A stretch of 32,000 bases of DNA from Geotalea uraniireducens Rf4 (GTDB lineage Bacteria > Desulfobacterota > Desulfuromonadia > Geobacterales > Geobacteraceae): assembly GCF_000016745.1 (NCBI RefSeq), contig NC_009483.1, positions 510,001-542,000 of the forward strand, read 5' to 3'. Positions 2,165 through 16,545 of this stretch are shown here, piece by piece. A program made the translations under genes and the position numbers. The notes under the pieces are model-generated. The model saw only the letters and a program-made list of their open reading frames with translations. It ran no database searches and was not told where the DNA came from. Every line of letters begins with the position of its first letter. Positions within the stretch are counted from its first letter, which is position 1.

Positions 2165-2288
2165 TATTTTTATAGGAGTTTCAGGATATTTTCAACATTA
2201 ATTAATTGCAAATATTACTTCCGGGAGGTGCCAAAGCTTTTATTTTACGGGGCGTAACAGACATTTATGATTCTTGAGAGGAGGTATT

Positions 2289-4214
2289 ATGTCGGAAAAG
2301 GCAATTAAAAAGACGAAGCTGCTGTTACTTGCGTTACTGGGCGTTGTTATTATCAGCACCCTGGTGATATGGGGCTGTGGAACAAAGGGGTACGATAATC
2401 CGGCAGCCGTATCTGCGGCCAAGTATTACGCCAACGACGCCACGGTGAATACCATGATCGATCCCGCCACGGTAAACAGGTGGGTTACTCAAGGGAATAA
2501 AACAGACGACGGCAAGCGAGTCGTGATTCTTGACGTTTTTCCCAACGATACCGATACCGACAGCTGGTTTGCGGGTGATTCCACCCTGATAAAACAGCAG
2601 ATGATCACTCAGTACGGTGGAACCCTGAGCCCTCAATACAAGATGATCGACGGTCTGAAAAATGCGAACCTGCTGGGGCACATCCCCGGCGCAATTCCCC
2701 AGGTTTCACATGCCGGCTACGAGGTAGCCACCAGGAACGATGGCCCGATCGAGACCGAACACGAGGTGGGGACCGGCGCCTATATCGATCAGATGCTCCA
2801 GAAGCTGGGGGTCAACAAGGATGATGTGCTCGTTCTGACCACTTCGCGCTATGACTACCCCGGCTTCTGTTCCGCGCGGCTCTTCTGGACCCTCTACTAC
2901 TGGGGCTTTTCCAGAAACAATATCAAGGTCTTGAACGGCGGCAACAAGGCATACGCCCAAGCCGGATTTCCGCTTGAAACAGGCAAGGTGATTTCCACGA
3001 TCACCCCTTCCACGTTCAGTGTCACCCAACTTGGCCAGAAACATCTCGATGCACGGATAAGTATCGGTGAGATGATCCAATTGGTGGACAGCGGGGCGAC
3101 CAACCAGACCACGGGCAGCGTCGTTGTGCTCGATACCCGTCAACCACCGGCGGCCTACTATTTCCTCGATCAGGATAACAACGGGATTCCGGATGCATTT
3201 GAAATACCCGGATATACGATGTCCAAAAACTCCACGGAAGGTCTCTATTTTGTGAGGAATAGCGACGGTAGGCATGTGACGCTGAGCGAACTGCTCTTCA
3301 AGGAAACAACCCCTGCCCGCGTGGCGTTCAGCGGATCATCCAACCCTCCGATCACCCTTCCAAACGCCTTTATCGGGATTACGGCTCCGGCCGGCCCCAA
3401 TCCCAATGGCGGTGTCCCGCTTTCCTTCCCGCTCGGCAACAAGGCCGCCGCCTTCGAAGGAATCATCAAGGGGGCCAAGGTCACCAAGACCGGCACATAC
3501 AACATAACCGTGCCGTCTCTTTGCAAGCCGGACGGTGTCAGTTATCTCGACCAGGCTGCCATGAAGTCCGTCTTCGCCACCGCCGGTATCGACGGCAGCA
3601 AGCCGATCGTAGTCTACTGCAACTCCGGTGCGCTGGCCTCCATCTACTATTATGCCCTGCACGAGGTCTGCGGTTTCCAGAACGTCAAGATCTACGACGG
3701 CTCATGGCTGGAATGGGCCAATATGGCGGCCTATGAGCCTACCGATCCCACCTATGTGATGAACGACGACTACACTGCCTATCCGTCCTATCCCGCTCCA
3801 AGCCCGTCGGTGGTCTTCTATGCCGCGTCGAACAAGTACCTTGAGTGGGACGGGACCCAGTTCGTCGACTCATTCACAAAACAGCCAGTCAACGGGCTGG
3901 TCAAGAAGGGTGGCGCCCTCGGCGGCAACACGTTCTGGGATACGGCACACCGCTCCGAGCACGTGATGTTCAGGCCTCTGGGCTCCTTGACATACACGAT
4001 GCTTACTTCGACACCAAACAGTTCCATAGCTTTCCTTTATAACAACAAAACTTACAGCAGCCTGACCGACTGGGCTCCGATCGTCACTCATCCCGCCTAC
4101 AGCGGGGCAGGAAGTGAGATCAACAACACGGACAAGGCATACACCACCCCCGCCGGTGCATCGAGCGGCAGCAGCGGGCCTGCGCCCTTCATCCCCAAAG
4201 GTGGCGGCTGCTAG
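2289..4214 (+). CDS. extH: Rhodanese-domain outer-membrane lipoprotein (ExtH-like), long paralog
   Basis: GAGGAGG RBS 4 nt before ATG 2289. Signal peptide with lipobox LVIWG-C. Rhodanese-type modules (VVILDV...GHIPGAI, and a C-terminal catalytic loop VYCNSGALAS followed by YDGSWLEW). Gly-rich tail ending ...PKGGGC-stop. Confidence 0.75.
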   Translation: MSEKAIKKTKLLLLALLGVVIISTLVIWGCGTKGYDNPAAVSAAKYYANDATVNTMIDPATVNRWVTQGNKTDDGKRVVILDVFPNDTDTDSWFAGDSTLIKQQMITQYGGTLSPQYKMIDGLKNANLLGHIPGAIPQVSHAGYEVATRNDGPIETEHEVGTGAYIDQMLQKLGVNKDDVLVLTTSRYDYPGFCSARLFWTLYYWGFSRNNIKVLNGGNKAYAQAGFPLETGKVISTITPSTFSVTQLGQKHLDARISIGEMIQLVDSGATNQTTGSVVVLDTRQPPAAYYFLDQDNNGIPDAFEIPGYTMSKNSTEGLYFVRNSDGRHVTLSELLFKETTPARVAFSGSSNPPITLPNAFIGITAPAGPNPNGGVPLSFPLGNKAAAFEGIIKGAKVTKTGTYNITVPSLCKPDGVSYLDQAAMKSVFATAGIDGSKPIVVYCNSGALASIYYYALHEVCGFQNVKIYDGSWLEWANMAAYEPTDPTYVMNDDYTAYPSYPAPSPSVVFYAASNKYLEWDGTQFVDSFTKQPVNGLVKKGGALGGNTFWDTAHRSEHVMFRPLGSLTYTMLTSTPNSSIAFLYNNKTYSSLTDWAPIVTHPAYSGAGSEINNTDKAYTTPAGASSGSSGPAPFIPKGGGC

Positions 4215-4298
4215 TACCCGCGTGTCTGCTTGACTGCCGCCTGCCGGAAAAAACGGGACAGGCGGCAGCATTAACGAACGAAAAGGAGCAATCAAGCT

Positions 4299-5504
4299 AT
4301 GATTAATAACAAAAAAACCGGTATCCTCAGCGCGACCCTGCTCGGCCTGACCCTGATGACCGGGACCGCCTTCGCCGGTCCCCGCATCACCTTCGGCCCG
4401 GAGGACCAGGGCGCATTGCAGATCGACTATAAGGGACAGTTACAGATGACGGTCCGGGATACCGGATCAGGCGAGAACAATGACGATACCACCACCAATT
4501 TCAACTTCCGCCGCAACCGGCTTGCCTTCATGGGCAAGTACGGCGAGATGCTGAGTCTCTACGTCCAGACGGAATTTACCGAGGACCAGAACGTGACCAC
4601 CCTCGGCGTCGCCAGCACCAACCAGGGGACGGAATTCCAGCTCCTCGACGCGGTGATGCGCTTCAAACTGAACGACAGTTTCCATGTGAACGCCGGCAAG
4701 TTCAAGTACAACCTCTCCCGCGAGAACCTGGAAGCGTGCGAGATGCCCCTGACCCTCGACCGGTCGCTCTTCATCCGCACCGCCTACACCACCACCCGTG
4801 ACACCGGGGTAGCGGTGTGGGGCAACCTGTTCAATGACATCTTCCAGTACCGCGTCGATGCCATGGAAGGGCGCAAGGCCGTATCGGGCGATACCGCTCC
4901 CAGTTCAAATTTCCGCTACTCCTTCCGCGGCCACGTCACGCTGCTCGATCCTGAGAACGATTATGGCTACAAGGGCACCTACCTTGGAAAGAAGAAGGTC
5001 CTGACCATCGGCGGCGCCTATCAGTTCGAACCGGAGATAGCCTATGGCGATACGGTTACCAGAACGGACAAGAAGGACTACCAGGCCTGGACGATTGATG
5101 GCTTCTTCGAGTATCCCCTTGAAGGAATCGGCACCGTCACAGCATCCGCTGCCTATGAAGATGTGGACCTGGATGACGCCTACAAAGGAGCCAATCCCGA
5201 CGCGGGAACCATCGGCCTCAACGGGCAGAAAAACGGCTGGTACGTGAAGGGGGGGTACATGCTCCCGAACCTTCCGCTGCAGTTCTTCGGCCGATACGAG
5301 AAGTGGCGTTTCGCCGAACTGAACAACATTTCCGACCAGAAGGTCGACTGGTACGGGGGGGGCGCCAATTACTACTTCCGTGGCCAGAACCTGAAGCTGA
5401 CCTTCGAAGCGGCACACACTGCCTTCGACAAGGATGGGACGGTCAACGGAGTGACGAGCAAGGATTTCACGACGTTCGTCACCCAATTGCAGCTGATATT
5501 CTAA
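4299..5504 (+). CDS. extI: Outer-membrane beta-barrel porin (ExtI-like / OprO-P-like)
   Basis: AGGAG RBS. Signal peptide ...GTAFA/GP. Alternating hydrophobic pattern rich in aromatic, Gly, Asn and Asp residues, with a C-terminal ...TQLQLIF typical of OM barrels. Near-identical paralog at 9972-11177. Confidence 0.75.
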   Translation: MINNKKTGILSATLLGLTLMTGTAFAGPRITFGPEDQGALQIDYKGQLQMTVRDTGSGENNDDTTTNFNFRRNRLAFMGKYGEMLSLYVQTEFTEDQNVTTLGVASTNQGTEFQLLDAVMRFKLNDSFHVNAGKFKYNLSRENLEACEMPLTLDRSLFIRTAYTTTRDTGVAVWGNLFNDIFQYRVDAMEGRKAVSGDTAPSSNFRYSFRGHVTLLDPENDYGYKGTYLGKKKVLTIGGAYQFEPEIAYGDTVTRTDKKDYQAWTIDGFFEYPLEGIGTVTASAAYEDVDLDDAYKGANPDAGTIGLNGQKNGWYVKGGYMLPNLPLQFFGRYEKWRFAELNNISDQKVDWYGGGANYYFRGQNLKLTFEAAHTAFDKDGTVNGVTSKDFTTFVTQLQLIF

Positions 5505-5541: not shown

Positions 5542-5859
5542 ATGAAAAAATCATTCACACTTGTTGCGACATTGCTCATAACCGTTGTTTTAGCGGCCGC
5601 CTCCATTGCCGCCGGCACTTTTACCGGAAAAGTAACCGCAGTCGACGGAGAAAAAGTATCGGTTACGGTTGACAAGGAGCTCCCCGCCTGGGTGAAGAAA
5701 GGGAGCGCTGTTCAGGCAATGGGAGGTGCCCCGATGGTAGTCGAGGTAAATGGGAATGTGGTCGTGCTCAAGTTCATCAAGGCCAAGGCTGCCAAGATCA
5801 AAGCTGACAGCAGCATGACCATCAGTGAATCGTCCGGTGACGAGCTCCAGGGTTGCTGA
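5542..5859 (+). CDS. extJ: Small secreted protein (ExtJ-like) ending in a C-terminal Cys
   Basis: AAGGAG RBS. Signal peptide MKKSFTLVATLLITVVLAAASIAA. 105 aa. Ends SSGDELQGC-stop, identical to the tail of the paralog at 11226-11546. Confidence 0.7.
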   Translation: MKKSFTLVATLLITVVLAAASIAAGTFTGKVTAVDGEKVSVTVDKELPAWVKKGSAVQAMGGAPMVVEVNGNVVVLKFIKAKAAKIKADSSMTISESSGDELQGC

Positions 5860-5911
5860 CACAGGGCGCGGGGGGCAGCCCTCCCCGTGGCTTATTTATG
5901 AAGGGAGGAAC

Positions 5912-7273
5912 ATGATGAAACAACGCGTAACCGGTGCCCTGGCCCTGCTTGCGGCCTCCGCCATCCTGGTCGGTCCGGCCTTCGCAGGTAATGTCGGAAT
6001 CGGGCGGGACAAGACGATAGCCGCCACAATGGGGAAGGCCAAAACCCTTGCCGAACTGGCAAAGATGTACGACTCAAGTTCCTGCATCGAATGTCATCAG
6101 GACAAGCACGACGAATCGCAGAAGTCCATACATTCGCGCTCCATCTTCGGTACGGCGCGGACGGCGCTGACCATAATGACCACCATCGAGAACGGTCTCA
6201 TGGAAGAGCCGTACTCGGGGGTGAAGAGCCCGAAGGACGTCAAGGTGGAACACCTGATGGGGTGCGCCAAGTGCCATCTGCCGCAACTGGCCGATGCCGA
6301 TGACTCGGTGGCCCAGGAGATCGTTACCACCCTATACGACTGGAAGACCGCCCTGAAGAAGAAAGACAAGGTTGCGGCAATGAAAGAAGAAGAAAAACTC
6401 AAGAGCGTCAGTATCAACTGTCTTATCTGCCACAACCGCAATGCCATCACCCACAAGTGGCAGGACGGCTATGCGAAGGCGGGGGTGATCTACGGCTCAA
6501 AGGACGGTGACCACCCTTCGGACAAGTTTCCCAAGATGGCAGTAAGTCCCATCATGAGCGAAGCTATCCAGTGCGGTCAATGTCACGGCATGGGACCGAA
6601 CCTGGAACTGGATGAGCCGACCCAGTGTTGTACGAGTTACGGCAGCTATCTCTGGGCCTACAAGTCCGAGATAGGGCAGAAGAACTGCCAGGACTGCCAC
6701 ATGAGGGAGAGCAAGCTCGGCCACAACATCCAGGCTTACCGTGACCCGGCGATGGCCAAGGCGGCGGTGGATTTCAAGACCGAAACATTCGGTTACTACT
6801 GGCGTGACGGAGCAGACATCAAACCGAAAGCGGTGGTCAAGGTGGAAATGATCAACCGGGCCGGACACTCCATCCCTGATGGCTGACCGACCCCCAACCG
6901 ACTGGTTCTGTCGGTAATAGCAAAAACGAAGGATGGCAAAGAAGTGTTCAACCAGGAGAAGATCTACATGCCGGTACCGCAGCAGTTGGGTCGTGGCGAC
7001 CGGATGGGGCGCGGCCCCTACGAAAAGAGCGGGTTGATTGAAGACACCGGGTTGCCGCCGGGCAAAGCAGTCCACGAGCGTTTCGATATCATGTTCCCGA
7101 TTGAAGAGGTGGAAGTGGACGGCAAGTTTGTCAACAAACCCGCGACCTACGACCTGGACGTCGAGGTGAAGCTCTGGTATCTCCCGTTCGGCCCGCTCGG
7201 AAAGCCGAGCAGCGATCCGTTTCTATGGCGGGAGTTCAGCAAGACCGTCAGCATCAGCATCAAAGGGAAGTAA
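5912..7273 (+). CDS. extKL: Pentaheme c-type cytochrome, predicted selenoprotein (TGA 6884-6886 read as Sec); fusion of track ORFs 5825-6886 and 6944-7273
   Basis: GGGAGGA RBS before ATG 5912. Signal peptide ...GPAFA/G. Five CXXCH motifs (CIECH, CAKCH, CLICH, CGQCH, CQDCH). The downstream track ORF is in the same frame (6944-5825 = 1119 = 3 x 373). Codons 6887-6943 are open and have no RBS of their own. The same architecture is present in the paralog. Confidence 0.75.
6884..6915 (+). promoter_or_regulatory. Candidate bacterial SECIS: UGA plus downstream stem-loop
   Basis: TGA at 6884-6886. Stem ACCGAC (6897-6902), loop TGGTTCT (6903-6909), stem GTCGGT (6910-6915). The GGUU in the loop lies about 20 nt from the UGA. 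The sequence is identical in the paralog. Confidence 0.6.
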
Positions 7274-7344: not shown

Positions 7345-8262
7345 CTACGCAGGGAAATTTATGGGGCGTGTCAAGTCGAATGCTGCAAAAAGGCAATCAA
7401 TGAAAACCTGGAGAGAAGGGGACAATTCCTGGCGGGCAAGTATCAGGGTGCGTGGCCGGCAGTGGCTGAATTCGCTGACTCGGTGGCCCCGAAGCAGGCC
7501 GCTTCGCAGCTCTTCCGCAACAATGCCGCTCGATGCGAACATGATCCCTTTGCCGGCAAGGACCTCACGGATGATGAAGGTGAAATCGTCGAAATAGACC
7601 ACGCTCGAGAATTCGCCGCAGGTGCGGCCGACCGTCCGCAGGTTCTTGTCGATGAACCGCTTCGCGCACCCCTTTTCGTTCTTCAGGTAAAGGCGTTCGC
7701 CGAAGAGCCGGTCGATGGTGGTTTCTTTCGCGGCGATGCCTAGTGCGGGAGCACTGAAAAACAGCACTTCGTCGTCGGGGAGGGGATGGGTGGCGTGGCT
7801 TTTCAGGTCGACCTCGTCGCAGTGTTCGATCAGGGCGAGGTCGAAGCGGCCGCTGTCGATTCCCACAAGCGCCTCCTCGGGCATGGCGAAGACGCAGTTC
7901 AGGTCGACGGTGGTGGCGTGGTCGGCAACAAAAGAAGAAAGGACACTGGGCAGACGGTCGATGCCGAGGGACGGGGTGCAGCAGAAGGAGATTTTCTGTT
8001 TGCCCTTGCTGATGTCGAGGCTGTCGAGGAGTTCCCGCTCGAGGTCAAGGATCTTGCGAGCCTTGTCGATCAGCATGTGCCCGGCATCCGTCAGCACGAG
8101 CGATGCTCCGGACCTTTCCATGAGCGGTTTGCCCACGTAATCCTCGAGTTGCTTGATACGACGCGAAACCGCCGACTGGGTGACGAAAAGGACGGCCGCG
8201 GCCTTGGAGATGTTACCGACGGCTGCAACCTTCAGGAAGGTTTTGAGAAGTACGAGATCCAT
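7345..8262 (-). CDS. LysR-family transcriptional regulator, divergent from module 2
   Basis: wHTH ISKAAAVLFVTQSAVSRRIKQLEDYVGKPLMERSG. The start is probably ATG 8262 (MDLVLLKTF..., aligning with MESIYLKTL of the paralog; purine-rich AGAGGG 7 nt upstream). The track start at 8325 is probably an over-extension. Confidence 0.85.
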   Translation of the reverse strand: MDLVLLKTFLKVAAVGNISKAAAVLFVTQSAVSRRIKQLEDYVGKPLMERSGASLVLTDAGHMLIDKARKILDLERELLDSLDISKGKQKISFCCTPSLGIDRLPSVLSSFVADHATTVDLNCVFAMPEEALVGIDSGRFDLALIEHCDEVDLKSHATHPLPDDEVLFFSAPALGIAAKETTIDRLFGERLYLKNEKGCAKRFIDKNLRTVGRTCGEFSSVVYFDDFTFIIREVLAGKGIMFASSGIVAEELRSGLLRGHRVSEFSHCRPRTLILARQELSPSLQVFIDCLFAAFDLTRPINFPA

Positions 8263-8298
8263 GGCCATGCCCTCTTCAAAGTGCCGGTATGCGCGTTG

Positions 8299-8315
8299 CG
8301 CATGCCGATCATGCG
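8299..8315. promoter_or_regulatory. Palindrome CGCATG-N5-CATGCG in the LysR / module-2 divergent region (candidate LysR operator)
   Basis: Perfect 6-5-6 inverted repeat about 40 bp upstream of the LysR start. A related TGCGCAT...CATTC.CTT string occurs upstream of the other LysR gene (783-819). Confidence 0.3.
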
Positions 8316-8518
8316 AAACATTCACTTACGGTTATCCCAAAAAAACCGATATAGTGCAATAAAGAAATATAATGCGAATTGGGTTACTAAATAATATTCA
8401 TATTGTTTGGTGGAGTCGGCGGTGTTTCCCGGCAAGCCGGGGTCTCACCGGCGCTGCACAAGATGCTGCCGTCAGCCGGATTCGTCCGGGACGGAAATTT
8501 CATTAATAGGGAGGTCGT

Positions 8519-9895
8519 ATGGCAAAACAGGTATGGAGAAAGGGGCGGATCGTGCTGGCGGGCATCTGCGGCGTTGTCGCGCTAACCTTGCTGGCCATGT
8601 GGGGCTGCGGCACGAGCGGGTATGACAATCCCTCGGCCGCAGTGGTGACAACAAAAACCGCCACCGCCCTGATTCAGGCGGCCGACCTGAAGCGATGGGC
8701 GGATGCCGGGCTGGTGAACAAGGCGGGGGGGTATGACCGGGTGGTCATTCTTGAAGTTACCACCAATACCAACAATTATAACGGTGAGCATATCCCCGGT
8801 GCCATCAGCGTAAACCGCGCCACGGATATTGCGGTGCAAAGGGTGGAGGGACCGGCTCTCACAGGTGATCTGGTGGCGGACGGCAAGATGATGGACGCGC
8901 TTATCCAGCGCTGTGGTATCGACCAGAACACCACCATCGTTTTCACGACATCCGAGGCCGAGATGAACGCGGACAATCACTACAATCTCACGCGCGGGTA
9001 TGCGACGTTCCGCTACTGGGGCTTTCCGAAAGAGCGGCTGAAGGTCCTCGACGGCGGCAACAAGGCTTGGAAGGCGGCGGGGCTGCCGATGACCACCATA
9101 GTTCCCGGCATCAAGAGCTCCACGTACTGCGTGACCCCCGATAATACCAACAGGGTTCGCGACGACCTGCGGGCCACCTTGTCCGACATGATCAAGGCGG
9201 TTCAGGCTGTCCAGGCGGGGACGGCCACGTATGATTTCATTGACGGCCGTGCGGATGGTGTGCCCGGTGAAACTCAGGACATTATTGACACAACATTGAC
9301 AGGACCAACATACGATACGACAACAACACCACCAACAATAAAATCGGTAGGTGGACTAAAAAAAGATGTTGTTTTCGAGGGTCAGGTGAAAGGCGGCAGG
9401 GGGTATGCCTATTCCAACCTGCGTGATGTGACCACGAGAAAATTTAAATCGATCTCCGACGTAATCGCCGGTTTGGATCTCCAGAAGCCAACCACCTATG
9501 TCATGTGCCGTTCAGGAAACATTGCCACGGTGCTGTTCTTCGCCATCGACGGCTACGCTTTCTATGACGGCTCAAAAAAGGCCGTTTGGTACGACGGCTC
9601 CTGGGGGCAGTGGGGGCTGATGGCAACTTCCGATCAACTCACTACCGCGGGTATAATTGCGGGAGGCAAACTGCCGGTTGGATCGGCCTGGTCGACGGTA
9701 TCGCTCACCAATATCCTCTCGTACAACAAAGACAACACTTTACGGACTGTCATCGACATTACCTCTCGCCTTGCTCCGGTCTCCCACGCCGATGTGAATG
9801 CCAACCAGACTGAAGAGGCGGACAAGGCGTATCGCAGTCCGGTATCCACCTCCGGTGGCGGTGCTACTGTTGGCGGTGGCGGTGGCGGCTGCTGA
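8519..9895 (+). CDS. extH: Rhodanese-domain outer-membrane lipoprotein (ExtH-like), short paralog
   Basis: GGGAGG RBS. Lipobox LLAMWG-C followed by GTSGYDNPSAAV (compare GTKGYDNPAAV in the paralog). N-terminal rhodanese-like domain without a catalytic Cys (VFTTSEAE). C-terminal catalytic loop VMCRSGNIAT followed by YDGSWGQWG. Tail ...GGGATVGGGGGGC-stop. Confidence 0.75.
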   Translation: MAKQVWRKGRIVLAGICGVVALTLLAMWGCGTSGYDNPSAAVVTTKTATALIQAADLKRWADAGLVNKAGGYDRVVILEVTTNTNNYNGEHIPGAISVNRATDIAVQRVEGPALTGDLVADGKMMDALIQRCGIDQNTTIVFTTSEAEMNADNHYNLTRGYATFRYWGFPKERLKVLDGGNKAWKAAGLPMTTIVPGIKSSTYCVTPDNTNRVRDDLRATLSDMIKAVQAVQAGTATYDFIDGRADGVPGETQDIIDTTLTGPTYDTTTTPPTIKSVGGLKKDVVFEGQVKGGRGYAYSNLRDVTTRKFKSISDVIAGLDLQKPTTYVMCRSGNIATVLFFAIDGYAFYDGSKKAVWYDGSWGQWGLMATSDQLTTAGIIAGGKLPVGSAWSTVSLTNILSYNKDNTLRTVIDITSRLAPVSHADVNANQTEEADKAYRSPVSTSGGGATVGGGGGGC

Positions 9896-9971: not shown

Positions 9972-11177
9972 ATGATAAAAATCACCAAGACAGTACGAAT
10001 TTCGACAGTGGCAGCCGGCTTGCTTCTGGTTGCCGGTACGGCCTTCGCCGGTCCGCGGATGACCTTCGGCCCCAACGACGAAGGTGCTTTGCAGATCGAC
10101 TACAAGGGGCAGTTACAGATGACGGTCCGGGATACCGGATCGGGCGAGAACAACGACGACACCACCACCAACTTCAACTTCCGCCGCAACCGGCTCGCCT
10201 TCATGGGCAAGTACGGCGAGATGCTGAGCCTCTACGTCCAGACGGAATTCACCGAAGACCAGAACGTGACCACCCTCGGCGTCGCCAGCACCAACCAGGG
10301 GACGGAATTCCAGCTCCTCGACGCGGTGATGCGCTTCAAACTGAACGACAGTTTCCATGTGAACGCCGGCAAGTTCAAGTACAACCTCTCCCGCGAGAAC
10401 CTGGAAGCGTGCGAGATGCCCCTGACTCTCGACCGGTCGCTCTTCATCCGCACCGCCTACACCACCACCCGTGACACCGGGGTAGCGGTGTGGGGCAACC
10501 TGTTCAATGACATCTTCCAGTACCGCGTCGATGCCATGGAAGGGCGCAAGGCCGTGTCTGGAGATACCGCTCCCAGTTCCAATTTCCGCTACTCCTTCCG
10601 CGGCCACGTCACGCTGCTCGACCCCGAGAACGATTACGGCTACAAGGGGACCTACTTGGGGAAGAAGAAGGTTCTGACCATCGGCGGTGCCTATCAGTTC
10701 GAACCGGAGATAGCCTATGGCGATACGGTTGCCAGAACGGACAAGAAGGATTACCAAGCCTGGACGGTTGATGGTTTCTTCGAGTATCCCCTTGAAGGAA
10801 TCGGCACAGTCACCGCTTCCGCTGCCTATGAAGATGTGGACCTGGATGATGCGTACAAAGGAGCCAATCCCGACGCGGGAACCATCGGCCTCAACGGGCA
10901 GAAAAACGGCTGGTACGTGAAGGGGGGGTACATGCTCCCGAACCTTCCGCTGCAGTTTTTCGGCCGCTACGAGAAGTGGCGTTTCGCCAGCCTCAACAAC
11001 ATTTTCGATCAGAAGGTCGACTGGTACGGGGGGGGCGCCAATTACTATTTCCGTGGCCAGAACCTGAAGCTGACCTTCGAGGCGGCACACACTGCCTTCG
11101 ACAAGGAAGGGACGGTCAACGGCGTGAGGAGCAAGGATTTCACGACGTTCGTCACCCAATTGCAGCTCATCTTCTAG
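9972..11177 (+). CDS. extI: Outer-membrane beta-barrel porin (ExtI-like), paralog 2
   Basis: Same length (401 aa) as 4299-5504. After the signal peptide only a handful of substitutions are visible. Ends TQLQLIF. Confidence 0.75.
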   Translation: MIKITKTVRISTVAAGLLLVAGTAFAGPRMTFGPNDEGALQIDYKGQLQMTVRDTGSGENNDDTTTNFNFRRNRLAFMGKYGEMLSLYVQTEFTEDQNVTTLGVASTNQGTEFQLLDAVMRFKLNDSFHVNAGKFKYNLSRENLEACEMPLTLDRSLFIRTAYTTTRDTGVAVWGNLFNDIFQYRVDAMEGRKAVSGDTAPSSNFRYSFRGHVTLLDPENDYGYKGTYLGKKKVLTIGGAYQFEPEIAYGDTVARTDKKDYQAWTVDGFFEYPLEGIGTVTASAAYEDVDLDDAYKGANPDAGTIGLNGQKNGWYVKGGYMLPNLPLQFFGRYEKWRFASLNNIFDQKVDWYGGGANYYFRGQNLKLTFEAAHTAFDKEGTVNGVRSKDFTTFVTQLQLIF

Positions 11178-11225: not shown

Positions 11226-11546
11226 ATGAAGAAGCTGATGACAACGATATCCGTGTTCTTGGCGACGGTAGCGCTGGCGGCAGTTGCCCTGGCGGCGAAC
11301 GCATCCTTCACCGGCAAGGTGACCAAGATCGACGGCACGAAGGTAACGGTAACGGCCGAGCAGGATATCCCTTCGTGGGTGAAGAAGGGGGCCAACGTCT
11401 CCGCCTTGGGGGGGGCTCCCAAGGTTCTCGAGGTGAAGGGGAAGGAGATGGTATTGCGGTTCGGCAAGGAGAAGGCGGCGACGATCAAGACAGACTCAGC
11501 CGTCACGGTCAACGAGTCGTCGGGCGACGAGCTCCAGGGGTGCTGA
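11226..11546 (+). CDS. extJ: Small secreted protein (ExtJ-like) ending in a C-terminal Cys, paralog 2
   Basis: AAGGAGG RBS, signal peptide, 106 aa, ends SSGDELQGC-stop. Confidence 0.7.
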   Translation: MKKLMTTISVFLATVALAAVALAANASFTGKVTKIDGTKVTVTAEQDIPSWVKKGANVSALGGAPKVLEVKGKEMVLRFGKEKAATIKTDSAVTVNESSGDELQGC

Positions 11547-11599: not shown

Positions 11600-12955
11600 A
11601 TGATGAAACAACGCGTAACCGGCGTCCTGGTTCTGCTGGCGGCCACTGCTGTTTTGGTCGGGCAGGCTTTTGCCGGCGGCAAGGCGGGGATCGGCTGGGA
11701 GGAGACCATTGTCGCCAAATCGGGCAAGGCGAAGACCCTTGCCGAACTGGCGAAGATGTACGACTCCAGTTCCTGCATCGAATGCCACCAGGACAAGCAT
11801 GACGAAGCACAGAAGTCCATACATTCGCGCTCGATCTACGGCACGGCACGGACGGCGATGACCATAATGACCACCATCGAGAACGGACTGATGGAAGAGC
11901 CGTATTCGGGGGTTAAGAGTCCGAAGGACGTCAAGGTGGAGCACCTGATGGGGTGCGCCAAGTGCCATCTGCCGCAACTGGCTGATGCCGAGGATTCGGT
12001 CGCCCAGGAGCTCGTTACCACCCTCTACAACTGGAAGGGAGCCCTGAAGAAGAAAGACAAGGCTGCGGCGAAGAAAGAAGAGGAAAAACTCAAGAGCGTC
12101 AGCATCAACTGTCTTGTGTGCCACAACCGCAATGCCATCACCCACAAATGGCAGGACGGCTACCCGAAGGCGGGGGTGGTCTACGGCTCAAAGGATGGGG
12201 ACCATCCTTCGGACAAGTTTCCCAAGATGGCTGTAAGTCCCATCATGAGTGAAGCGATCCAGTGCGGCCAATGCCACGGCATGGGGCCGAACCTGGAGCT
12301 TGATGAGCCGACCCAGTGCTGTACGAGTTACGGCAGCTATCTTTGGGCCTACAAGTCCGAGATAGGGCAGGAGAGCTGCCAGGACTGCCACATGAAGAAG
12401 AGCAAGCTCGGCCACAACATCCAGGCATACCGCGATCCGGCGATGGCCAAGGCGGCAGTGGATTTCAAGGCCGAAACATTCGGTTATTACTGGCGCGACG
12501 GCGCAGACATCAAACCGAAAGCGGTGGTCAAGGTGGAAATGATCAACCGGTCCGGCCACTCCATCCCCGACGGCTGACCGACCCCCAACCGACTGGTTCT
12601 GTCGGTAATAGCAAAAACGAAGGATGGCAAAGAAGTGTTCAACCAGGAGAAGATCTACATGCCGGTACCGCAGCAGCTGGGGCGGGGAGACCGGATGGGG
12701 CGCGGCCCCTACGAGAAAAGCGGCATCATCGAGGATACGGGGTTGCCGCCCGGCAAAACTGTCCATGAGCGTTTCGATATCATGTTCCCTATAGATGAGG
12801 TGGAAATGGACGGCAAGTTTGTCAACAAGCCCACGACCTACGATCTGGATATCGAAGTGAAGCTCTGGTACCTGCCTTTCGGAACGCCGAACTCCGACCC
12901 GTTTCTGTGGCGGGAATTCAGCAAGACTGTCAGCATCAGTAAAGGTGGCAAGTAA
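11600..12955 (+). CDS. extKL: Pentaheme c-type cytochrome, predicted selenoprotein (TGA 12575-12577 read as Sec); fusion of track ORFs 11600-12577 and 12635-12955
   Basis: GGGAGGA RBS, signal peptide, five CXXCH motifs. 12635-11600 = 1035 = 3 x 345, so both pieces share one frame. Context ...INRSGHSIPDG-TGA-PTPNRLVLSVIAKTKDGKEVFNQEK.... Confidence 0.75.
12575..12606 (+). promoter_or_regulatory. Candidate bacterial SECIS (paralog 2)
   Basis: TGA at 12575-12577. ACCGAC (12588-12593), TGGTTCT loop, GTCGGT (12601-12606). Confidence 0.6.
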
Positions 12956-13110: not shown

Positions 13111-14973
13111 ATGAGATCATCTAACCCAAAATTGAGCTTTTCCGCGAGGCGCCTGTGGCTGTTTCTGCTTGTACTCCTTGCGCTTACGGGCTGTGGTGTG
13201 CGCAGTGGTAAAACAACCGCATGCGAATCGTGCCATCAGCATATTGAAAAGGTATCAACAAGCCATCCTGACTGTATTTCCTGTCATGGCGGCGACCCTC
13301 AGGAAAAAAACAAGAATGCTTCCCATCTCACCATGTTTGGGCCGAAAAACCCTGCTGCGCCTCAATACTGGGACAAAACCTGTGGCGCTTGTCACCTCTA
13401 TCAACTGGGCAGGGTCAAGGCAAACCTTATGTACACCGCTACCGGGATGATCAAAAACACCCAGATCACCTGGGAGGGTGCGGACAATCAGCTTTACAGC
13501 AGCAAGGGAGGGGATGTTTACGATTCTAAAGGGAATCCGCAACGGTTGAAGCCGGTTTCCGAACTCGACCATTTATCCGGTGAACTGTATCGCAAGTTCT
13601 GCTCGCAATGCCATGTTGCCGAGGAAACAGACGATGTGTACAGCGCCAGTCATGCATCCGGCTGCGCCGCATGTCATTTTCAATATAACAATACGGCAAC
13701 CTACGAGGGTAAGGACGCGACGGTCAGAGGCAAAACTCCCTATTCCGCCAGCCATGCAATGGAAAAGCTTCCCGATAACAAGACCTGTTCCCGCTGCCAC
13801 AATCGGAGTGGCCGGATCGCCCTTTCCTATGAGGGGCTCTACGACGGCAACAACTCAATGGTGCCGACAAAGAACGGTCTTCCCGGGCCGGTTATGCTCA
13901 GTGGCCCCCGCAACGCCGCCCATATTGCCGCTGATGTCCATGCCGCTGCGGGGATGGACTGTATTGACTGTCATACATCGCGGGATGTCATGGGGGACGG
14001 CTATGCCTATGAGAACATGTATCTCCAGACCGAGATCAGCTGTGAGGACTGCCATGGCGGGGCCAAAGTTCCCCGTTACCGGGAAATAACGAGGGAGAAC
14101 GGCGAGGCGCTGCGGGAGTCTAAAAGCTATAGAATGCGGATGCGGCCGGCGATGAAAATGCTGGTGACTGCCAAAGGGCGCACCTACTCCAATGTCTTTT
14201 ACCGGGACGGCGTTGTCTATGTCCTCGGCAAGCGGAGCGGAAAGCTGTTCAAAAGCAAGGTGATCACCGGGACCCCCGAGCATACGATTGTCGGTCACGG
14301 CCGAATGGAATGTTACGCCTGCCATTCGCGGACCGTGGTCCAGTGCTATGGTTGTCATACCACCTATGACAAAACCAAAACCGGCATGGATTTTATCAAG
14401 GGGGTGGAAACCCCCGGTCGCTTCAGCGAGAAGGAAGATTACCGGATGTTGTATCCCTTCCCCCTGGCGCTGAATCAGCGGGGACGGATATCTCCCGTTA
14501 CCCCCGGCTGCCAGACCTTTATCACCGTTATCGAGGCGGACGGCACTACCTCAAAGAACGAATACGTGGCGCGCTACAAAGGGAAGCAACAGTTGCGCTT
14601 CGCCCCGTTTTATTCCCACAACACCGGCAAGAAAGCTATCGGCTGTAGTGAGTGCCACGGCAATCCGGCATTTCTCGGATTCGGCCAGCATGTCGTGGCA
14701 GGCGCCGGCATCTACGGCACGCTGATCTGCGAGCAATCAGCGGACAAGCCTCTTGATGGCTACCTCACCCTGCAAGAGGGGAAGGTGCGGGCGTACTCCG
14801 CCATAACCCGGGAACATTCCCGGCCGCTGAACGGAAAAGAAGTGCGGCGGACCCTGGCGGTCAATATCTGCATCGTTTGCCATGACAAGGCAAAGGATCC
14901 AATTTACCGAAAGGAACTCAACTATCGTGCGCTTAATGATGCTCTGCATCGCCGTCTGCTTTCTGACCGCTAA
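13111..14973 (+). CDS. 12-heme c-type cytochrome lipoprotein
   Basis: Signal peptide with lipobox LALTG-C. Twelve CXXCH motifs counted (CESCH, CISCH, CGACH, CSQCH, CAACH, CSRCH, CIDCH, CEDCH, CYACH, CYGCH, CSECH, CIVCH). Confidence 0.85.
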   Translation: MRSSNPKLSFSARRLWLFLLVLLALTGCGVRSGKTTACESCHQHIEKVSTSHPDCISCHGGDPQEKNKNASHLTMFGPKNPAAPQYWDKTCGACHLYQLGRVKANLMYTATGMIKNTQITWEGADNQLYSSKGGDVYDSKGNPQRLKPVSELDHLSGELYRKFCSQCHVAEETDDVYSASHASGCAACHFQYNNTATYEGKDATVRGKTPYSASHAMEKLPDNKTCSRCHNRSGRIALSYEGLYDGNNSMVPTKNGLPGPVMLSGPRNAAHIAADVHAAAGMDCIDCHTSRDVMGDGYAYENMYLQTEISCEDCHGGAKVPRYREITRENGEALRESKSYRMRMRPAMKMLVTAKGRTYSNVFYRDGVVYVLGKRSGKLFKSKVITGTPEHTIVGHGRMECYACHSRTVVQCYGCHTTYDKTKTGMDFIKGVETPGRFSEKEDYRMLYPFPLALNQRGRISPVTPGCQTFITVIEADGTTSKNEYVARYKGKQQLRFAPFYSHNTGKKAIGCSECHGNPAFLGFGQHVVAGAGIYGTLICEQSADKPLDGYLTLQEGKVRAYSAITREHSRPLNGKEVRRTLAVNICIVCHDKAKDPIYRKELNYRALNDALHRRLLSDR

Positions 14974-16177
14974 CGCGGCAAACGGCAGCGCCGGTGAAAA
15001 CTGCACGGTCTGTCACCGGGTGACCCTCAAAGGTATCCATGCCTCACTGTCGTGCCTTTCCTGCCACGGGGATGAGATCAAGACCCTCGGCAATCCGGCA
15101 GCTGCAGCGAACCGTGCTGCCGGTTGCGTCGGCTGCCACCGGGGGTATGAAGTGCTGTTCGATCACGCCATGGCTACGAGAAAAAGTGAAAAGCTCTTTG
15201 TCGATCGGACAATCGGCACGATCGATCCGGCATTTTTCCGGAACAACTGCAACTCCTGTCACCTGCGTAGCTGCACCGACTGCCATGGGGGAAACGGCCA
15301 CGACATTGCCAGGGCAACGGACCGGAGCTGTTTCACCTGCCACAAGGGGTATTTTGTTGGAACCGATTACTACGGCATGGCCCCGCGGGAGGACAGCCTC
15401 CGCTATCAGCGGGGGGCGGTTGCCTACGGCGAAACATACCTGAAAATGACCCCCGACGTCCACGCGGAGGGGGGGGTGAAATGTGGCGCCTGCCATTCCA
15501 TGCGAAGTCTTGTTGCGGGTTACAAGTCGTCAAAAAAGTGCGTTGACTGTCACAAGGTGAACAAAAAGGTCATTGAACACCGGATCAGCGCCCATCTGGA
15601 AAAGATGGAGTGCTTTGCCTGTCACTCTGCCTGGACCCCGCAGGAATACGGGACGTTCTATCTCCGATTTGCGGAGAGCCCGTCGCAGGATTATTATCGG
15701 GTCCGGAACAACGAGGGCAATTATGTGAAAAGCGCCTACCTGCGCAAGCAGGACGCTCCGCCGCTCGGTATTAATGCTCGCGGCAAGGTCAGCCCGATCC
15801 GGCCGGAGTTTGTGTTCTATTTTACCGACATCAGGAACGACCGGCCGGTCGGGACGGAGAACCGCCTGCTGGCGGCTGAGTGGAAGGCGTTTTTCCCCCA
15901 TACGATCCGCCGCGGAACGGTCATGTGCGAGGGGTGCCACGATAACCCCCGCCGCTTTATCATGGAGAGGCATGAGGACAGGATCTACCAGTTGCAGGCC
16001 GACGGCATGACGCTGCCGTCCTTCTGGGACAGAACCGGTCAAAAGGTAACGAATGGTGATTTTCTTCCCGTTTCACGGTATCTGCAGCTGACGAAAAAGA
16101 GCCCGGCCTACCAGAAAGCGTACATAGAAAAATGGCAGAAGCTGGTCAATCACGTCGAAAATTCATCGCAACCCTGA
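14882..16177 (+). CDS. 10-heme c-type cytochrome
   Basis: Ten CXXCH motifs (CTVCH, CLSCH, CVGCH, CNSCH, CTDCH, CFTCH, CGACH, CVDCH, CFACH, CEGCH). The start is uncertain. ATG 14882 gives a charged n-region plus a hydrophobic core but overlaps the upstream gene by 92 nt. The alternative is ATG 14936. Confidence 0.8.
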   Translation: MTRQRIQFTERNSTIVRLMMLCIAVCFLTANAANGSAGENCTVCHRVTLKGIHASLSCLSCHGDEIKTLGNPAAAANRAAGCVGCHRGYEVLFDHAMATRKSEKLFVDRTIGTIDPAFFRNNCNSCHLRSCTDCHGGNGHDIARATDRSCFTCHKGYFVGTDYYGMAPREDSLRYQRGAVAYGETYLKMTPDVHAEGGVKCGACHSMRSLVAGYKSSKKCVDCHKVNKKVIEHRISAHLEKMECFACHSAWTPQEYGTFYLRFAESPSQDYYRVRNNEGNYVKSAYLRKQDAPPLGINARGKVSPIRPEFVFYFTDIRNDRPVGTENRLLAAEWKAFFPHTIRRGTVMCEGCHDNPRRFIMERHEDRIYQLQADGMTLPSFWDRTGQKVTNGDFLPVSRYLQLTKKSPAYQKAYIEKWQKLVNHVENSSQP

Positions 16178-16524: not shown

Positions 16525-16545
16525 TGGACAGCTCCGGAGGTCCGC

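What the first reader, a model, noticed from the sequence alone, without database searches (positions are those of the whole stretch)
4140..4214. Conserved C-terminal Gly-Cys tails on the rhodanese lipoproteins and small periplasmic proteins: a possible chalcogen-carrier swinging arm feeding a Sec cytochrome
- **Terminal Cys in four proteins:** The rhodanese lipoproteins end ...PAPFIPKGGGC (4214) and ...GGGATVGGGGGGC (9895). Both small proteins end SSGDELQGC (5859 and 11546).
- **Selection rather than conversion:** By eye the two small proteins are otherwise only about half identical. Their tail codons differ synonymously (gaatcgtccggtgacgagctccagggttgc vs gagtcgtcgggcgacgagctccaggggtgc). This points to selection on the peptide, not gene conversion.
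- **Established background:** Rhodanese domains carry persulfide (and can carry selenium) on the active-site Cys, which is present here as CNSGALA and CRSGNIA. SoxY carries sulfur species on a Cys in a flexible C-terminal GGCGG arm.
- **Inference:** Rhodanese Cys, a flexible terminal Cys on two carriers, a dedicated porin and a Sec-containing pentaheme cytochrome together form a covalent S/Se/Te (possibly thio-arsenic) relay coupled to heme electron transfer at the outer membrane. I am not aware of this mechanism having been described.
Basis: partly seen in the sequence, partly recalled or inferred. Interest (0 to 1): 0.8.

Follow-up and report, generated by a model that had tools for sequence, protein, structure and literature searches.

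The report
Terminal cysteine arms in ExtHIJ
Two proteins of a known Geobacter sulfur/selenium-reduction gene cluster (the ExtH rhodanese and the small protein ExtJ) always end in a flexible tail tipped with Gly-Cys, and their porin partner keeps one invariant cysteine, which suggests, but does not prove, that sulfur is handed from thiol to thiol across the outer membrane to a periplasmic reductase.

Summary
All four proteins end in Gly-Cys at the stated coordinates.

**What the locus is.** The window comes from Geotalea uraniireducens. It holds two tandem copies of the known extH-extI-extJ-extKL cluster. ExtKL is MccSep, a periplasmic pentaheme selenoprotein recently shown to be the polysulfide/selenite reductase of S0 respiration.

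**How conserved the tails are.**
- ExtH: 118/120 database homologs and 41/41 in related loci end in Cys. The Cys follows a Gly/Ser/Thr linker of nearly fixed length (18-20 residues).
- ExtJ: 32/32 close homologs and 58/58 in related loci end in xGC. In distant relatives only one Trp and the terminal Gly-Cys are invariant.
- Only 1.6% of background ORFs end in Cys.

**New here.**
- The ExtI porin has a lone invariant Cys in its most conserved motif.
- The porin-ExtJ pair persists in loci where MccSep is replaced by a PhsA/PsrA-like molybdoenzyme.
- ExtJ is a small beta-barrel with a disordered tail. It is not a SoxY homolog.

**Reading.** The tails are most likely thiol arms of a sulfane-sulfur (or Se) uptake and delivery module. 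A structural disulfide staple cannot be excluded. The system is known, but I found no description of the tails. No experiment or complex model tests the mechanism.

The parts
2274..4214 (+). extH copy 1: a divergent, insertion-bearing tandem-rhodanese lipoprotein of 646 aa. Lipobox Cys35 is at 2376-2378 and catalytic Cys449 (VVYCNSGALA) at 3618-3620.
   Evidence: NF040901 ExtH scores 173.8 bits, below the cut-off of 200. Pfam Rhodanese E = 7e-14.
4140..4214 (+). The terminal Cys codon is 4209-4211.
   Evidence: A similar tail (..FVPKGGGC) occurs on the 631-aa ExtH of locus L018.
4299..5504 (+). extI copy 1: an outer-membrane porin. Its only Cys, Cys147 (4737-4739), lies in the motif SRENLEACEMPLTLDRS.
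   Evidence: NF040900 scores 714.6 bits. The Cys is invariant in 47/47 homologs and in distant ExtI-like porins.
5542..5859 (+). extJ copy 1: a 105-aa protein with a signal peptide, a small beta-barrel and the tail ESSGDELQGC. The terminal Cys105 codon is 5854-5856.
   Evidence: NF040942 scores 68.8 bits against a cut-off of 52.5. In the AF2 model the core (residues 26-96) has pLDDT 81-88 and the tail about 51.
5909..7273 (+). extKL copy 1 = MccSep: a pentaheme cytochrome c selenoprotein with five CxxCH motifs. The Sec codon TGA is at 6884-6886. Cys240 (6626-6628) is the equivalent of the heme-ligating Cys.
   Evidence: NF040886. PDB 9wt8 MccSep matches at E = 4e-161.
7345..8325 (-). A LysR-family regulator lying between the two ext copies.
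   Evidence: NF041036, multiheme-cytochrome-associated LysR, 305.6 bits. PMC6148476 notes a LysR gene upstream of extHIJKL clusters.
8519..9895 (+). extH copy 2: the canonical ExtH of 458 aa. Lipobox Cys30 is at 8606-8608, catalytic Cys330 (MCRSGNIA) at 9506-9508 and terminal Cys458 at 9890-9892, after the linker VSTSGGGATVGGGGGG.
   Evidence: NF040901 scores 377.8 bits. Conservation is shown.
9972..11177 (+). extI copy 2: 95% identical to copy 1. Cys147 is at 10410-10412.
11226..11546 (+). extJ copy 2: 106 aa with the tail ESSGDELQGC. The terminal Cys codon is 11541-11543.
   Evidence: NF040942 scores 76.4 bits.
11600..12955 (+). extKL copy 2 = MccSep paralog. The Sec codon TGA is at 12575-12577.
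13111..18361 (+). The downstream electron-supply genes of the cluster: extM (13111-14973), extN/O-like (14882-16177), extP cytochrome b (16546-17166) and extS (17555-18361).
   Evidence: NCBIfam hits: NF040943 at 1100 bits, NF040967/NF040968 at about 690 bits, NF040969 at 215.4 bits (below its 290-bit cut-off, so extP is a sub-threshold assignment) and NF040971 at 363 bits.

Best explanation
**Identity of the proteins.** The four Gly-Cys tails are family signatures of ExtH and ExtJ. These are two components of the known ExtHIJKL module, which is duplicated in this Geotalea uraniireducens window.

**Most likely function.** The terminal thiols probably work as flexible arms that bind and pass on zero-valent chalcogen. 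That would be sulfane sulfur held as persulfide or polysulfide and, by the same chemistry, selenium held as a selenotrisulfide.

**Proposed path. Every step below is inferred.**
1. The ExtH rhodanese lipoprotein is held at the outer membrane by ExtI. It loads sulfur on its catalytic Cys and passes it to its own terminal Cys, which sits on a Gly/Ser/Thr linker of about 19 residues.
2. The ExtI porin offers one invariant Cys in its most conserved loop.
3. ExtJ is a periplasmic small beta-barrel. It collects the sulfur on the terminal Cys of its disordered tail.
4. ExtJ presents the sulfur to a periplasmic reductase, which releases HS-. Here that reductase is MccSep (ExtKL, with a Sec plus a His/Cys-ligated heme). 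In some other organisms it is a PhsA/PsrA-like molybdoenzyme.

**Shown.**
- The identity of the proteins.
- The conservation and length constraint of the tails.
- The disorder of the ExtJ tail.
- The lone conserved Cys of the porin.
- The gene associations.
- From the literature, the MccSep activity and the dependence of ExtH localisation on ExtI.

**Inferred.** Any covalent loading of the tails, the order of transfer, and on which face of the membrane ExtH sits.
For: **1. Conservation far beyond chance.**
- The ExtJ terminal G and C are invariant.
- In distant relatives at 30-55% identity, only Trp48 and the terminal Gly-Cys are invariant.
- The penultimate residue is Gly in 90/91 family members. 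The terminal Cys is the only Cys of the mature protein in 82/91.
- Of 161 ExtH sequences, 160 end in Cys and 154 end in GC.
- The ExtH linker after the D.AY motif is 18-20 residues in 131/145. Its composition is 40% Gly, 18% Ser and 14% Thr, so length is conserved while sequence is not.

**2. ExtJ architecture.** The ExtJ model has a confident beta-barrel core and a low-confidence tail. This is the layout of a carrier with a mobile arm.

**3. A cysteine in the porin.** ExtI has one Cys. It is invariant in 47/47 homologs and lies inside the best-conserved motif R(E/A)NL(E/D)xC..PL..DRS. It is also kept in distant ExtI-like porins.

**4. Gene context points to sulfur.**
- ExtJ lies directly upstream of MccSep in 58 of 73 loci by automated count, and 61 of 73 after three were recovered by manual inspection (L025, L029, L077).
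- Distant ExtJ-like genes sit directly after an ExtI-like porin in 13 of 15 metagenomic loci.
- Those distant genes are followed either by MccSep (L093, L095) or by a Tat-exported PhsA/PsrA-like molybdopterin enzyme (L087, L090, L091, L094, L096). The molybdoenzyme in turn precedes a cytochrome b and ExtM.
- Other distant members are adjacent to rhodaneses (L083, L084).

**5. Literature.**
- MccSep is a periplasmic polysulfide/selenite reductase essential for S0 respiration. Its authors leave the entry route and the sulfur-transfer components open (PMC13510729).
- ExtH localisation at the outer membrane depends on ExtI (Jahan 2019, as summarised in PMC8981825).

**6. Precedents for each step.**
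- SoxY carries intermediates on a Cys in a swinging arm and is served by a His/Cys-heme enzyme, SoxAX (PMC5336275).
- The Sud rhodanese delivers polysulfide sulfur to Psr, and the Aquifex rhodanese supplies sulfur reductases (references cited in PMC6378623).
Against: - No experiment or complex model here shows sulfur or selenium on any tail.
- MccSep reduces free polysulfide in vitro and was purified and crystallised without ExtJ.
- All 12 Nitrospirota-type MccSep loci examined lack ExtH, ExtI and ExtJ. The reductase therefore does not need them in general.
- The location of ExtI Cys147 in a pore-lining loop rests only on counting predicted strands. The AF2 model of ExtI failed, with pLDDT 28.
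- The charge of the ExtJ tail is not conserved. It is acidic in ExtJ proper and basic in distant relatives, so no specific docking surface can be inferred.
- Co-conserved lone cysteines are explained equally well by a structural disulfide.
Confidence: 0.5

Rival explanations
1. **Structural staple.** The terminal Cys of ExtJ, and/or that of ExtH, forms a permanent intermolecular disulfide. The partner would be ExtI Cys147, or the two tails would bond to each other. The tails would then be leashes that tether the partners to the porin, and the Cys would carry no substrate.
For: - The lone porin Cys and the lone ExtJ terminal Cys are co-conserved wherever the pair occurs, including loci that have no ExtH and no MccSep.
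- ExtH outer-membrane localisation depends on ExtI.
- The periplasm is a compartment that forms disulfides (general knowledge).
Against: - ExtHIJ has three conserved lone thiols, not two.
- A simple staple does not explain a length-conserved, Gly-rich 19-residue linker on a rhodanese.
- It also does not explain the strict Gly-Cys terminus.
- The exclusive association with sulfur and selenium reductases and rhodaneses favours a chemical role.
- The two readings are not exclusive. A disulfide or polysulfide bridge could be the resting state of a relay.
Confidence: 0.25
2. **Selenium/tellurium capture.** The thiols bind selenite or tellurite by Painter-type chemistry, forming RS-Se-SR. The purpose would be uptake, detoxification or supply of Se for selenoprotein synthesis. 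Sulfur respiration would not be their main role.
For: - Deleting extI impairs selenite uptake and the formation of Se0 and Te0 (PMC5877670).
- NCBIfam names the whole operon for selenite/tellurite reduction.
- The cluster encodes a selenoprotein.
- MccSep reduces selenite.
Against: - MccSep is induced by S0 and is essential for S0 respiration.
- The porin-ExtJ pair also accompanies PhsA/PsrA-like enzymes of the thiosulfate/polysulfide type.
- It also accompanies rhodaneses, which points to sulfur.
- Selenium is a trace substrate in most habitats of these organisms.
- The chemistry of the two readings overlaps, so this rival is a matter of emphasis.
Confidence: 0.15
3. **No function.** The tails are a low-complexity accident of these paralogs, are kept alike by gene conversion, or are cleaved off during maturation.
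For: - ExtI and ExtKL are 95% and 91% identical between the two copies, so some homogenisation occurs in this locus.
- No data here show what the mature C-termini are.
Against: - The tails are conserved across hundreds of orthologs in several phyla, down to about 30% identity.
- The two ExtJ tails differ at 4 synonymous sites.
- The background frequency of a terminal Cys is 1.6%.
Confidence: 0.03

Closest known systems
ExtHIJKL(MNOPQS) cluster of Geobacter sulfurreducens (GSU2940-GSU2930), including MccSep = ExtKL
   Same: - Same gene order, with curated NCBIfam matches for ExtI, ExtJ, ExtKL, ExtM, ExtN/O and ExtS. ExtH copy 2 also matches. ExtP matches below its cut-off.
- The Sec context HSIPDG-U-PTPNR is identical to the peptide sequenced from MccSep.
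- A divergently transcribed LysR regulator is present.
   Different: - Here extHIJKL is present twice in tandem.
- The first copy carries a divergent 646-aa ExtH that scores below the family cut-off.
- The published work treats ExtJ as a protein of unknown function. In the papers I could read it does not mention the terminal Cys of ExtH or ExtJ, or the porin Cys.
SoxYZ carrier with SoxAX (Sox thiosulfate oxidation)
   Same: - A small periplasmic beta-protein that carries sulfur intermediates on a Cys in a flexible, Gly-flanked C-terminal arm.
- Its partner enzyme uses a His/Cys-ligated heme. The MccSep authors themselves liken their enzyme to the reverse of the SoxAX/TsdA reaction.
   Different: - There is no sequence or fold relationship. 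ExtJ has no Pfam hit, and Foldseek finds generic small barrels (riboflavin synthase and the F1-ATPase N-terminal domain) rather than SoxY.
- In ExtJ the Cys is the very last residue (xGC-COOH). In SoxY it is embedded in GGCGG.
- No SoxZ partner is present.
- The pathway runs in the reductive direction.
Sud polysulfide-sulfur transferase with Psr (Wolinella succinogenes); SbdP rhodanese with sulfur reductase (Aquifex aeolicus)
   Same: A periplasmic rhodanese-fold protein binds polysulfide sulfur on a Cys and delivers it to a polysulfide or sulfur reductase (references cited; general knowledge).
   Different: - ExtH is a tandem-domain lipoprotein bound to a porin, and it has an extra terminal Cys on a long linker.
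- The reductase is a heme/Sec enzyme, not a molybdoenzyme. The exception is the PhsA-like loci found, and those lack ExtH.
DsrC (C-terminal arm of dissimilatory sulfite reductase)
   Same: A small protein whose flexible C-terminal arm, bearing a Cys, enters the active site of a heme-type sulfur reductase and leaves carrying sulfur (general knowledge; mentioned).
   Different: - DsrC is cytoplasmic and helical.
- It uses two Cys about 10 residues apart to form a trisulfide.
- ExtJ is periplasmic, all-beta and has a single Cys.
MtrCAB/Pcc porin-cytochrome conduits
   Same: The layout is an outer-membrane barrel plus a lipoprotein plus a periplasmic partner encoded together. ExtHIJKL was first classed with these conduits.
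   Different: The lipoprotein is a rhodanese and the small periplasmic partner has no heme. What would cross the membrane is a chalcogen atom on thiols, not electrons on hemes. This last point is inference.

Membership tests
ExtH (NCBIfam NF040901, selenite/tellurite reduction operon rhodanese-like protein) | The HMM score reaches the curated cut-off of 200 bits. | tested here: met
   ExtH2 scores 377.8 bits over the full model. ExtH1 scores 173.8 bits, below the cut-off, so it is a divergent paralog and not a clean equivalog.
ExtH | A lipoprotein signal with a lipobox Cys, a tandem rhodanese with a catalytic Cys, and a gene directly upstream of extI. | tested here: met
   - The ..WGC lipobox Cys is conserved in 158/161 sequences.
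- The catalytic Cys is conserved in 161/161.
- The gene order is seen.
ExtJ (NCBIfam NF040942) | The HMM score reaches the 52.5-bit cut-off, and the gene encodes a small secreted protein between extI and extKL. | tested here: met
   The two copies score 68.8 and 76.4 bits. The position between porin and cytochrome holds in both copies and in 58 related loci.
ExtI porin (NCBIfam NF040900) | The HMM score reaches the 150-bit cut-off. | tested here: met
   714.6 bits over the full length. Pfam Porin_O_P matches at 1.2e-15.
MccSep / ExtKL (NCBIfam NF040886; PDB 9wt8) | Five CxxCH motifs, a heme-ligating Cys, and a Sec (TGA) in the DG-U-P loop. | tested here: met
   - Five CxxCH motifs, and Cys240 in TQCCTSY.
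- TGA at 6884-6886 and at 12575-12577 in HSIPDG*PTPNR.
- The N-terminal part scores 424 bits.
- E = 4e-161 to MccSep chains.
MccSep / ExtKL | Sec is actually inserted, and the protein has polysulfide reductase activity. | not testable with these tools
   Both are shown only for the G. sulfurreducens ortholog (PMC13510729).
SoxY (sulfur carrier of the Sox system) | SoxY sequence family or Ig-like fold. | tested here: not met
   ExtJ has no Pfam family. The AF2 model is a 6-stranded small barrel. The best PDB matches are the riboflavin synthase and F1-ATPase N-terminal barrels at E about 3e-3, and none is SoxY.
SoxY | The carrier Cys lies in a flexible, Gly-flanked C-terminal arm. | tested here: met
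   The terminal xGC follows a tail with pLDDT about 51. The feature is met in spirit. The Cys is the last residue rather than sitting inside GGCGG.
SoxY | Covalent sulfur adducts form on the arm Cys. | not testable with these tools
   This needs mass spectrometry of the native protein.
DsrC/TusE | Two conserved Cys in the C-terminal arm, and a helical fold. | tested here: not met
   The mature protein has a single Cys in 82/91 members. The model is all-beta.
Sud-type polysulfide-sulfur transferase | A single-domain soluble periplasmic rhodanese with one Cys. | tested here: not met
   ExtH is a tandem-domain lipoprotein with three invariant Cys. It shares the superfamily but has a different architecture.

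The most novel reading that the evidence does not exclude
**A covalent thiol 'bucket brigade' through an outer-membrane porin.**
1. The length-constrained arm of surface-exposed ExtH enters ExtI from outside.
2. It hands sulfane sulfur (or Se) to the invariant in-pore Cys147.
3. From there the sulfur passes to the terminal Cys of periplasmic ExtJ.
4. ExtJ feeds whichever reductase is present, either MccSep or a Psr/Phs-like enzyme.

This would be a protein-mediated, atom-by-atom translocation of an insoluble electron acceptor across the outer membrane. It would give a molecular identity to the 'thiol-bearing outer-membrane proteins' long postulated for S8 mobilisation.
Probability: 0.2. Interest if true: 0.85.

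Novelty: new variant of a known kind. Interest (0 to 1): 0.6.

Why it matters
**The open question.** How insoluble elemental sulfur, or the polysulfide derived from it, reaches a periplasmic reductase is unresolved. The 2026 MccSep paper says so explicitly. Sulfur-oxidation models have invoked unidentified 'thiol-containing outer-membrane proteins' since 2003 (PMC6335251).

**What the analysis provides.** It yields concrete residues that can be mutated:
- the terminal Cys of ExtJ;
- the terminal Cys and linker of ExtH;
- Cys147 of ExtI.

These sit in a genetically tractable organism, G. sulfurreducens, for which S0 and selenite assays already exist.

**A wider module.** The analysis also defines a porin-ExtJ pair that extends beyond Geobacteraceae. 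That pair accompanies two unrelated classes of sulfur reductase, which helps annotate many metagenomic loci.

**If the arms carry sulfur.** This would be a third, independently evolved case of a C-terminal cysteine arm feeding a sulfur redox enzyme, after SoxY and DsrC. It would be the first one linked to an outer-membrane channel.

Tried and rejected
1. **AlphaFold2 of ExtI.** With only the two window copies the model was useless, with mean pLDDT 27.9. The position of Cys147 is therefore unresolved. A crude amphipathicity scan and strand counting suggest the long loop after the fifth strand, but this is weak evidence.
2. **PDB sequence search with the ExtI profile.** It found nothing at E up to 1, so no mapping onto OprP was possible.
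3. **Multimer prediction of ExtH/I/J/KL.** This is not possible with the tools.
4. **SoxY homology for ExtJ.** Rejected, because ExtJ has no family hit and a different fold.
5. **ExtJ-like 'repeats' in giant proteins.** These appeared in the deep search, for example P0281 with 20 matched stretches. The one giant protein scanned against Pfam, P0286, is a He_PIG/cadherin-like Ig-repeat protein. The hits look like compositional matches of beta-rich repeats, and they do not end in Cys. I set them aside.
6. **First metagenome scan.** The scan with the broad distant alignment failed because no stretch was conserved enough. A narrower alignment worked.
7. **Context look-ups for distant ExtJ-like proteins.** Most returned contigs under 1.2 kb. 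These were informative only for the immediately adjacent gene fragments.
8. **An acidic tail docking on MccSep Arg83/Lys372.** I considered this, but tail charge is not conserved across the family, so I do not propose it.
9. **The Jahan 2019 BBRC paper on ExtH.** It is not held and I used it only through a review's summary.
Full report
**What is at the coordinates.**
- ExtH1 (2274-4214) ends ...GPAPFIPKGGGC.
- ExtH2 (8519-9895) ends ...GGGATVGGGGGGC.
- The two small proteins (5542-5859 and 11226-11546) both end SSGDELQGC.
- The two small proteins are 59% identical, and their tail codons differ at four synonymous positions.
- The rhodanese active-site motifs CNSGALA and CRSGNIA are present.
- The in-frame TGA codons lie in HSIPDG-TGA-PTPNR.

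**What the locus is.**
The window comes from Geotalea (Geobacter) uraniireducens. Each of the three window proteins searched (ExtJ1, ExtH2 and the ExtK1 N-terminal part) has its best hit in that species: 100% identity for ExtJ1 and ExtH2, and 90% for ExtK1, whose best hit matches the other window copy.
- NCBIfam assigns the genes to curated families of the 'selenite/tellurite reduction operon': ExtH, ExtI, ExtJ, ExtKL, ExtM, ExtN/O and ExtS. ExtP matches below its cut-off.
- The module extH-extI-extJ-extKL is present twice, separated by a LysR regulator.
- ExtI and ExtKL are 95% and 91% identical between copies. ExtJ is 59% identical, and ExtH only about 40% over the aligned part.
- ExtH1 is a divergent, insertion-bearing paralog that scores below the family cut-off.
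- ExtKL matches the solved structure of MccSep from G. sulfurreducens at E = 4e-161.

MccSep is described in a 2026 paper (PMC13510729).
- It is a periplasmic, tetrameric pentaheme selenoprotein.
- It reduces polysulfide, and also selenite, at a site formed by a His/Cys-ligated heme and Sec325.
- It is essential for S0 respiration.
- The paper states that the route by which polysulfide enters the periplasm is unknown. [quoted passage not shown]

Earlier papers add the following.
- ExtI is an outer-membrane porin needed for selenite and tellurite reduction.
- ExtH is a rhodanese-like lipoprotein whose outer-membrane localisation depends on ExtI.
- ExtJ is a small protein of unknown function.
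- None of the texts I could search mentions the C-terminal cysteines.

**Are the tails conserved?**
Yes, and to a degree that makes them family signatures.

ExtJ proper:
- All 32 close homologs end in xGC, and the block GDELQGC is the best-conserved part of the protein.
- In 80 genome loci fetched around ExtK homologs, an ExtJ gene lies directly upstream of ExtK in 58 of 73 loci with enough sequence by automated count, and in 61 of 73 after manual inspection recovered L025, L029 and L077.
- All 58 automatically detected ExtJ genes end in Cys, and so do the three recovered by inspection.

The wider ExtJ family:
- An exhaustive profile search of 1.84 billion representative proteins found about 82 short ExtJ-like proteins.
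- Of these, 60 end in Cys and about 9 have the Cys two or three residues from the end. The rest look like fragments.
- In an alignment of 25 distant members (30-55% identity), the only invariant residues are one Trp (the P-x-W motif) and the terminal Gly and Cys.
- Across the family the penultimate residue is Gly in 90/91. The terminal Cys is the only Cys of the mature protein in 82/91.

ExtH:
- 118 of 120 database homologs end in Cys, and the two exceptions are truncated.
- All 41 ExtH genes in the fetched loci end in Cys.
- In a 161-sequence alignment three Cys are essentially invariant: the lipobox Cys, the rhodanese catalytic Cys and the terminal Cys.
- The segment between the conserved D-x-A-Y motif and the terminal Cys is 18-20 residues in 131 of 145 sequences.
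- That segment is 40% Gly, 18% Ser and 14% Thr, so its length is held constant while its sequence drifts.

The background frequency of a terminal Cys among unrelated long ORFs in the same loci is 1.6%.

**What kind of protein is ExtJ?**
- It has no Pfam family.
- An AlphaFold2 model from 23 sequences gives a six-stranded small beta-barrel (residues 26-96, pLDDT 81-88). The C-terminal tail has low confidence, with pLDDT about 51.
- The best structural matches are generic small barrels: the riboflavin synthase N-terminal domain and the N-terminal domain of F1-ATPase subunits. They match at E about 3e-3, and none is SoxY.
- ExtJ is therefore not a SoxY homolog. It does have the same layout as a carrier with a mobile arm.

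**New observations that bear on function.**

First, the ExtI porin contains a single Cys (Cys147; 4737-4739 and 10410-10412).
- It is invariant in 47/47 homologs and is the only Cys of the mature protein in 41 of them.
- It lies in the most conserved motif of the family, SRENLEACExPLTLDRS.
- The same Cys, in the motif R(E/A)NL(E/D)xC..PL..DRS, is kept in distant ExtI-like porins from metagenomes.

Second, the porin-ExtJ pair is the conserved core of the system.
- In 15 metagenomic loci found with distant ExtJ-like proteins, an ExtI-like porin is directly upstream in 13.
- The gene downstream is MccSep in two loci (L093, L095).
- In five loci (L087, L090, L091, L094, L096) it is a Tat-exported molybdopterin oxidoreductase. 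Its best match is thiosulfate reductase PhsA, at 520-546 bits, which is below the equivalog cut-off.
- In the two of these loci where the downstream genes were scanned, L087 carries a cytochrome b and ExtM after the molybdoenzyme, and L091 a cytochrome b.
- The reductase has therefore been exchanged between two unrelated enzyme classes of reductive sulfur metabolism, while the porin and ExtJ stayed.
- These loci have no ExtH.

Third, other distant ExtJ-like genes are adjacent to rhodanese genes (L083, L084).

Fourth, the association is not universal.
- All 12 Nitrospirota-type MccSep loci lack ExtH, ExtI and ExtJ.
- A Desulfuromonas group keeps ExtJ and MccSep behind a different porin-like protein and has no ExtH.

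**Interpretation.**
The best-supported reading is that the terminal Gly-Cys thiols are functional. They would belong to an outer-membrane uptake and delivery module for zero-valent sulfur, and by the same chemistry for selenium. Each element has a precedent:
- Rhodaneses carry persulfide, and Sud or SbdP deliver polysulfide sulfur to reductases.
- SoxY presents sulfur on a C-terminal Cys arm to enzymes that include the His/Cys-heme protein SoxAX. The MccSep authors themselves compare their enzyme with the reverse of that reaction.
- DsrC does the same for sulfite reductase.

I propose this order: ExtH catalytic Cys, then the ExtH arm, then ExtI Cys147, then the ExtJ arm, then the reductase. 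Every transfer in that chain is inference.

What is shown is the conservation, the linker length constraint, the disorder of the ExtJ tail, the lone porin Cys and the gene associations.

The main rival is a structural disulfide that staples ExtJ and/or ExtH to ExtI.
- It explains the co-conserved lone cysteines equally well.
- It is weakened only by the odd number of thiols, by the rhodanese linker and by the strict sulfur and selenium context.
- The two readings are compatible if a disulfide or polysulfide bridge is the resting state.

A selenium-centred reading (capture as a selenotrisulfide for uptake or detoxification) is chemically close. It is supported by the extI phenotypes, but it fits the PhsA-like and rhodanese associations less well.

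Evidence against an obligatory carrier role is that MccSep turns over free polysulfide in vitro and occurs without ExtHIJ in Nitrospirota.

- The relay idea is reasonable, is strengthened by the comparative data, and is not described in the literature I could search.
- The system itself is known, and the cytochrome is periplasmic rather than at the outer membrane.
- ExtJ is only an analog of SoxY.
- The thio-arsenic suggestion has no support from the ext genes. An ACR3 arsenite transporter and an ArrA-like molybdoenzyme lie downstream in the window, but that is only neighbourhood.

**Limits.**
- No complex could be modelled.
- The ExtI model failed, so whether Cys147 lines the pore is unknown.
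- The membrane face on which ExtH sits is unknown.
- Maturation of the C-termini is untested.
- The Jahan 2019 paper could not be read.

Noticed in passing
window 4737-4739 and 10410-10412 (ExtI Cys147): The porin's only Cys is invariant in 47/47 homologs and in distant ExtI-like porins. It sits in the family's most conserved motif, SRENLEACExPLTLDRS. Cysteines are rare in outer-membrane barrels.
   Followed up: partly
L087 8304-10562, L090 8415-10619, L091 3304-5520, L094 8224-10530, L096 2568-4874: In these metagenomic loci the ExtI-like porin and the ExtJ-like protein are followed by a Tat-exported PhsA/PsrA-like molybdopterin oxidoreductase instead of MccSep. A cytochrome b (scanned in L087 and L091) and ExtM (scanned in L087) follow. 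This looks like non-orthologous replacement of the terminal reductase.
   Followed up: partly
L017 6551-9502 (stop codon at 8729-8731): A rhodanese-like gene directly upstream of an ExtJ-like gene has an in-frame TGA five residues after the active-site Cys (..VVFYCSGVT-TGA-AMSPAAAREAEKLGY..). It could be a Sec-containing rhodanese or a pseudogene.
   Followed up: no
window 2274-4214 versus 8519-9895, and the whole of 2274-12955: The tandem duplication of extHIJKL has evolved unevenly. ExtI is 95% and ExtKL 91% identical between copies, ExtJ is 59%, and ExtH about 40% with a roughly 190-residue size difference. This suggests homogenisation of the porin and cytochrome, or replacement of the lipoprotein. 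Published work notes frequent swapping of ExtH.
   Followed up: partly
L046, L050, L056, L063, L064, L074 (upstream of ExtJ-like genes ending ..ALTGC): In these Desulfuromonas-type loci, ExtJ and MccSep are preceded by a different protein of about 590-640 aa. It looks like a porin, has a coiled-coil-like N-terminus and ends ..MDQAYLTMDVMF. There is no ExtH.
   Followed up: no
L053, L060, L061, L065-L069, L071, L072, L076, L078-L080: Nitrospirota MccSep genes stand without ExtH, ExtI or ExtJ. L061 has two MccSep paralogs in tandem. In three loci a beta-barrel-like ORF of about 480-510 aa ending ..TFEVRF lies upstream.
   Followed up: no
window 843-2018 (-): An IS4-family transposase (NF033592, 235 bits) lies immediately upstream of the first ext copy. 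It may be related to the duplication or to acquisition of the divergent ExtH1.
   Followed up: no
window 18784-31000: Downstream of the ext cluster lie several further genes:
- molybdenum-cofactor genes (MoeA-, MobB- and MobA-like ORFs);
- an ACR3 arsenite efflux gene (22712-23764, minus strand);
- an ArrA-like molybdopterin enzyme (24865-27432, 1009 bits, below the ArrA cut-off of 1600);
- an ArrB-like FeS subunit;
- a TorD-like chaperone.
   Followed up: partly
P0281, P0283, P0286, P0290 and others (deep search hits): The ExtJ profile also matches multiple stretches of giant proteins. P0286, the one scanned against Pfam, is a He_PIG/cadherin-like Ig-repeat protein. These are probably compositional matches of beta-rich repeats, and the proteins lack a terminal Cys.
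   Followed up: partly
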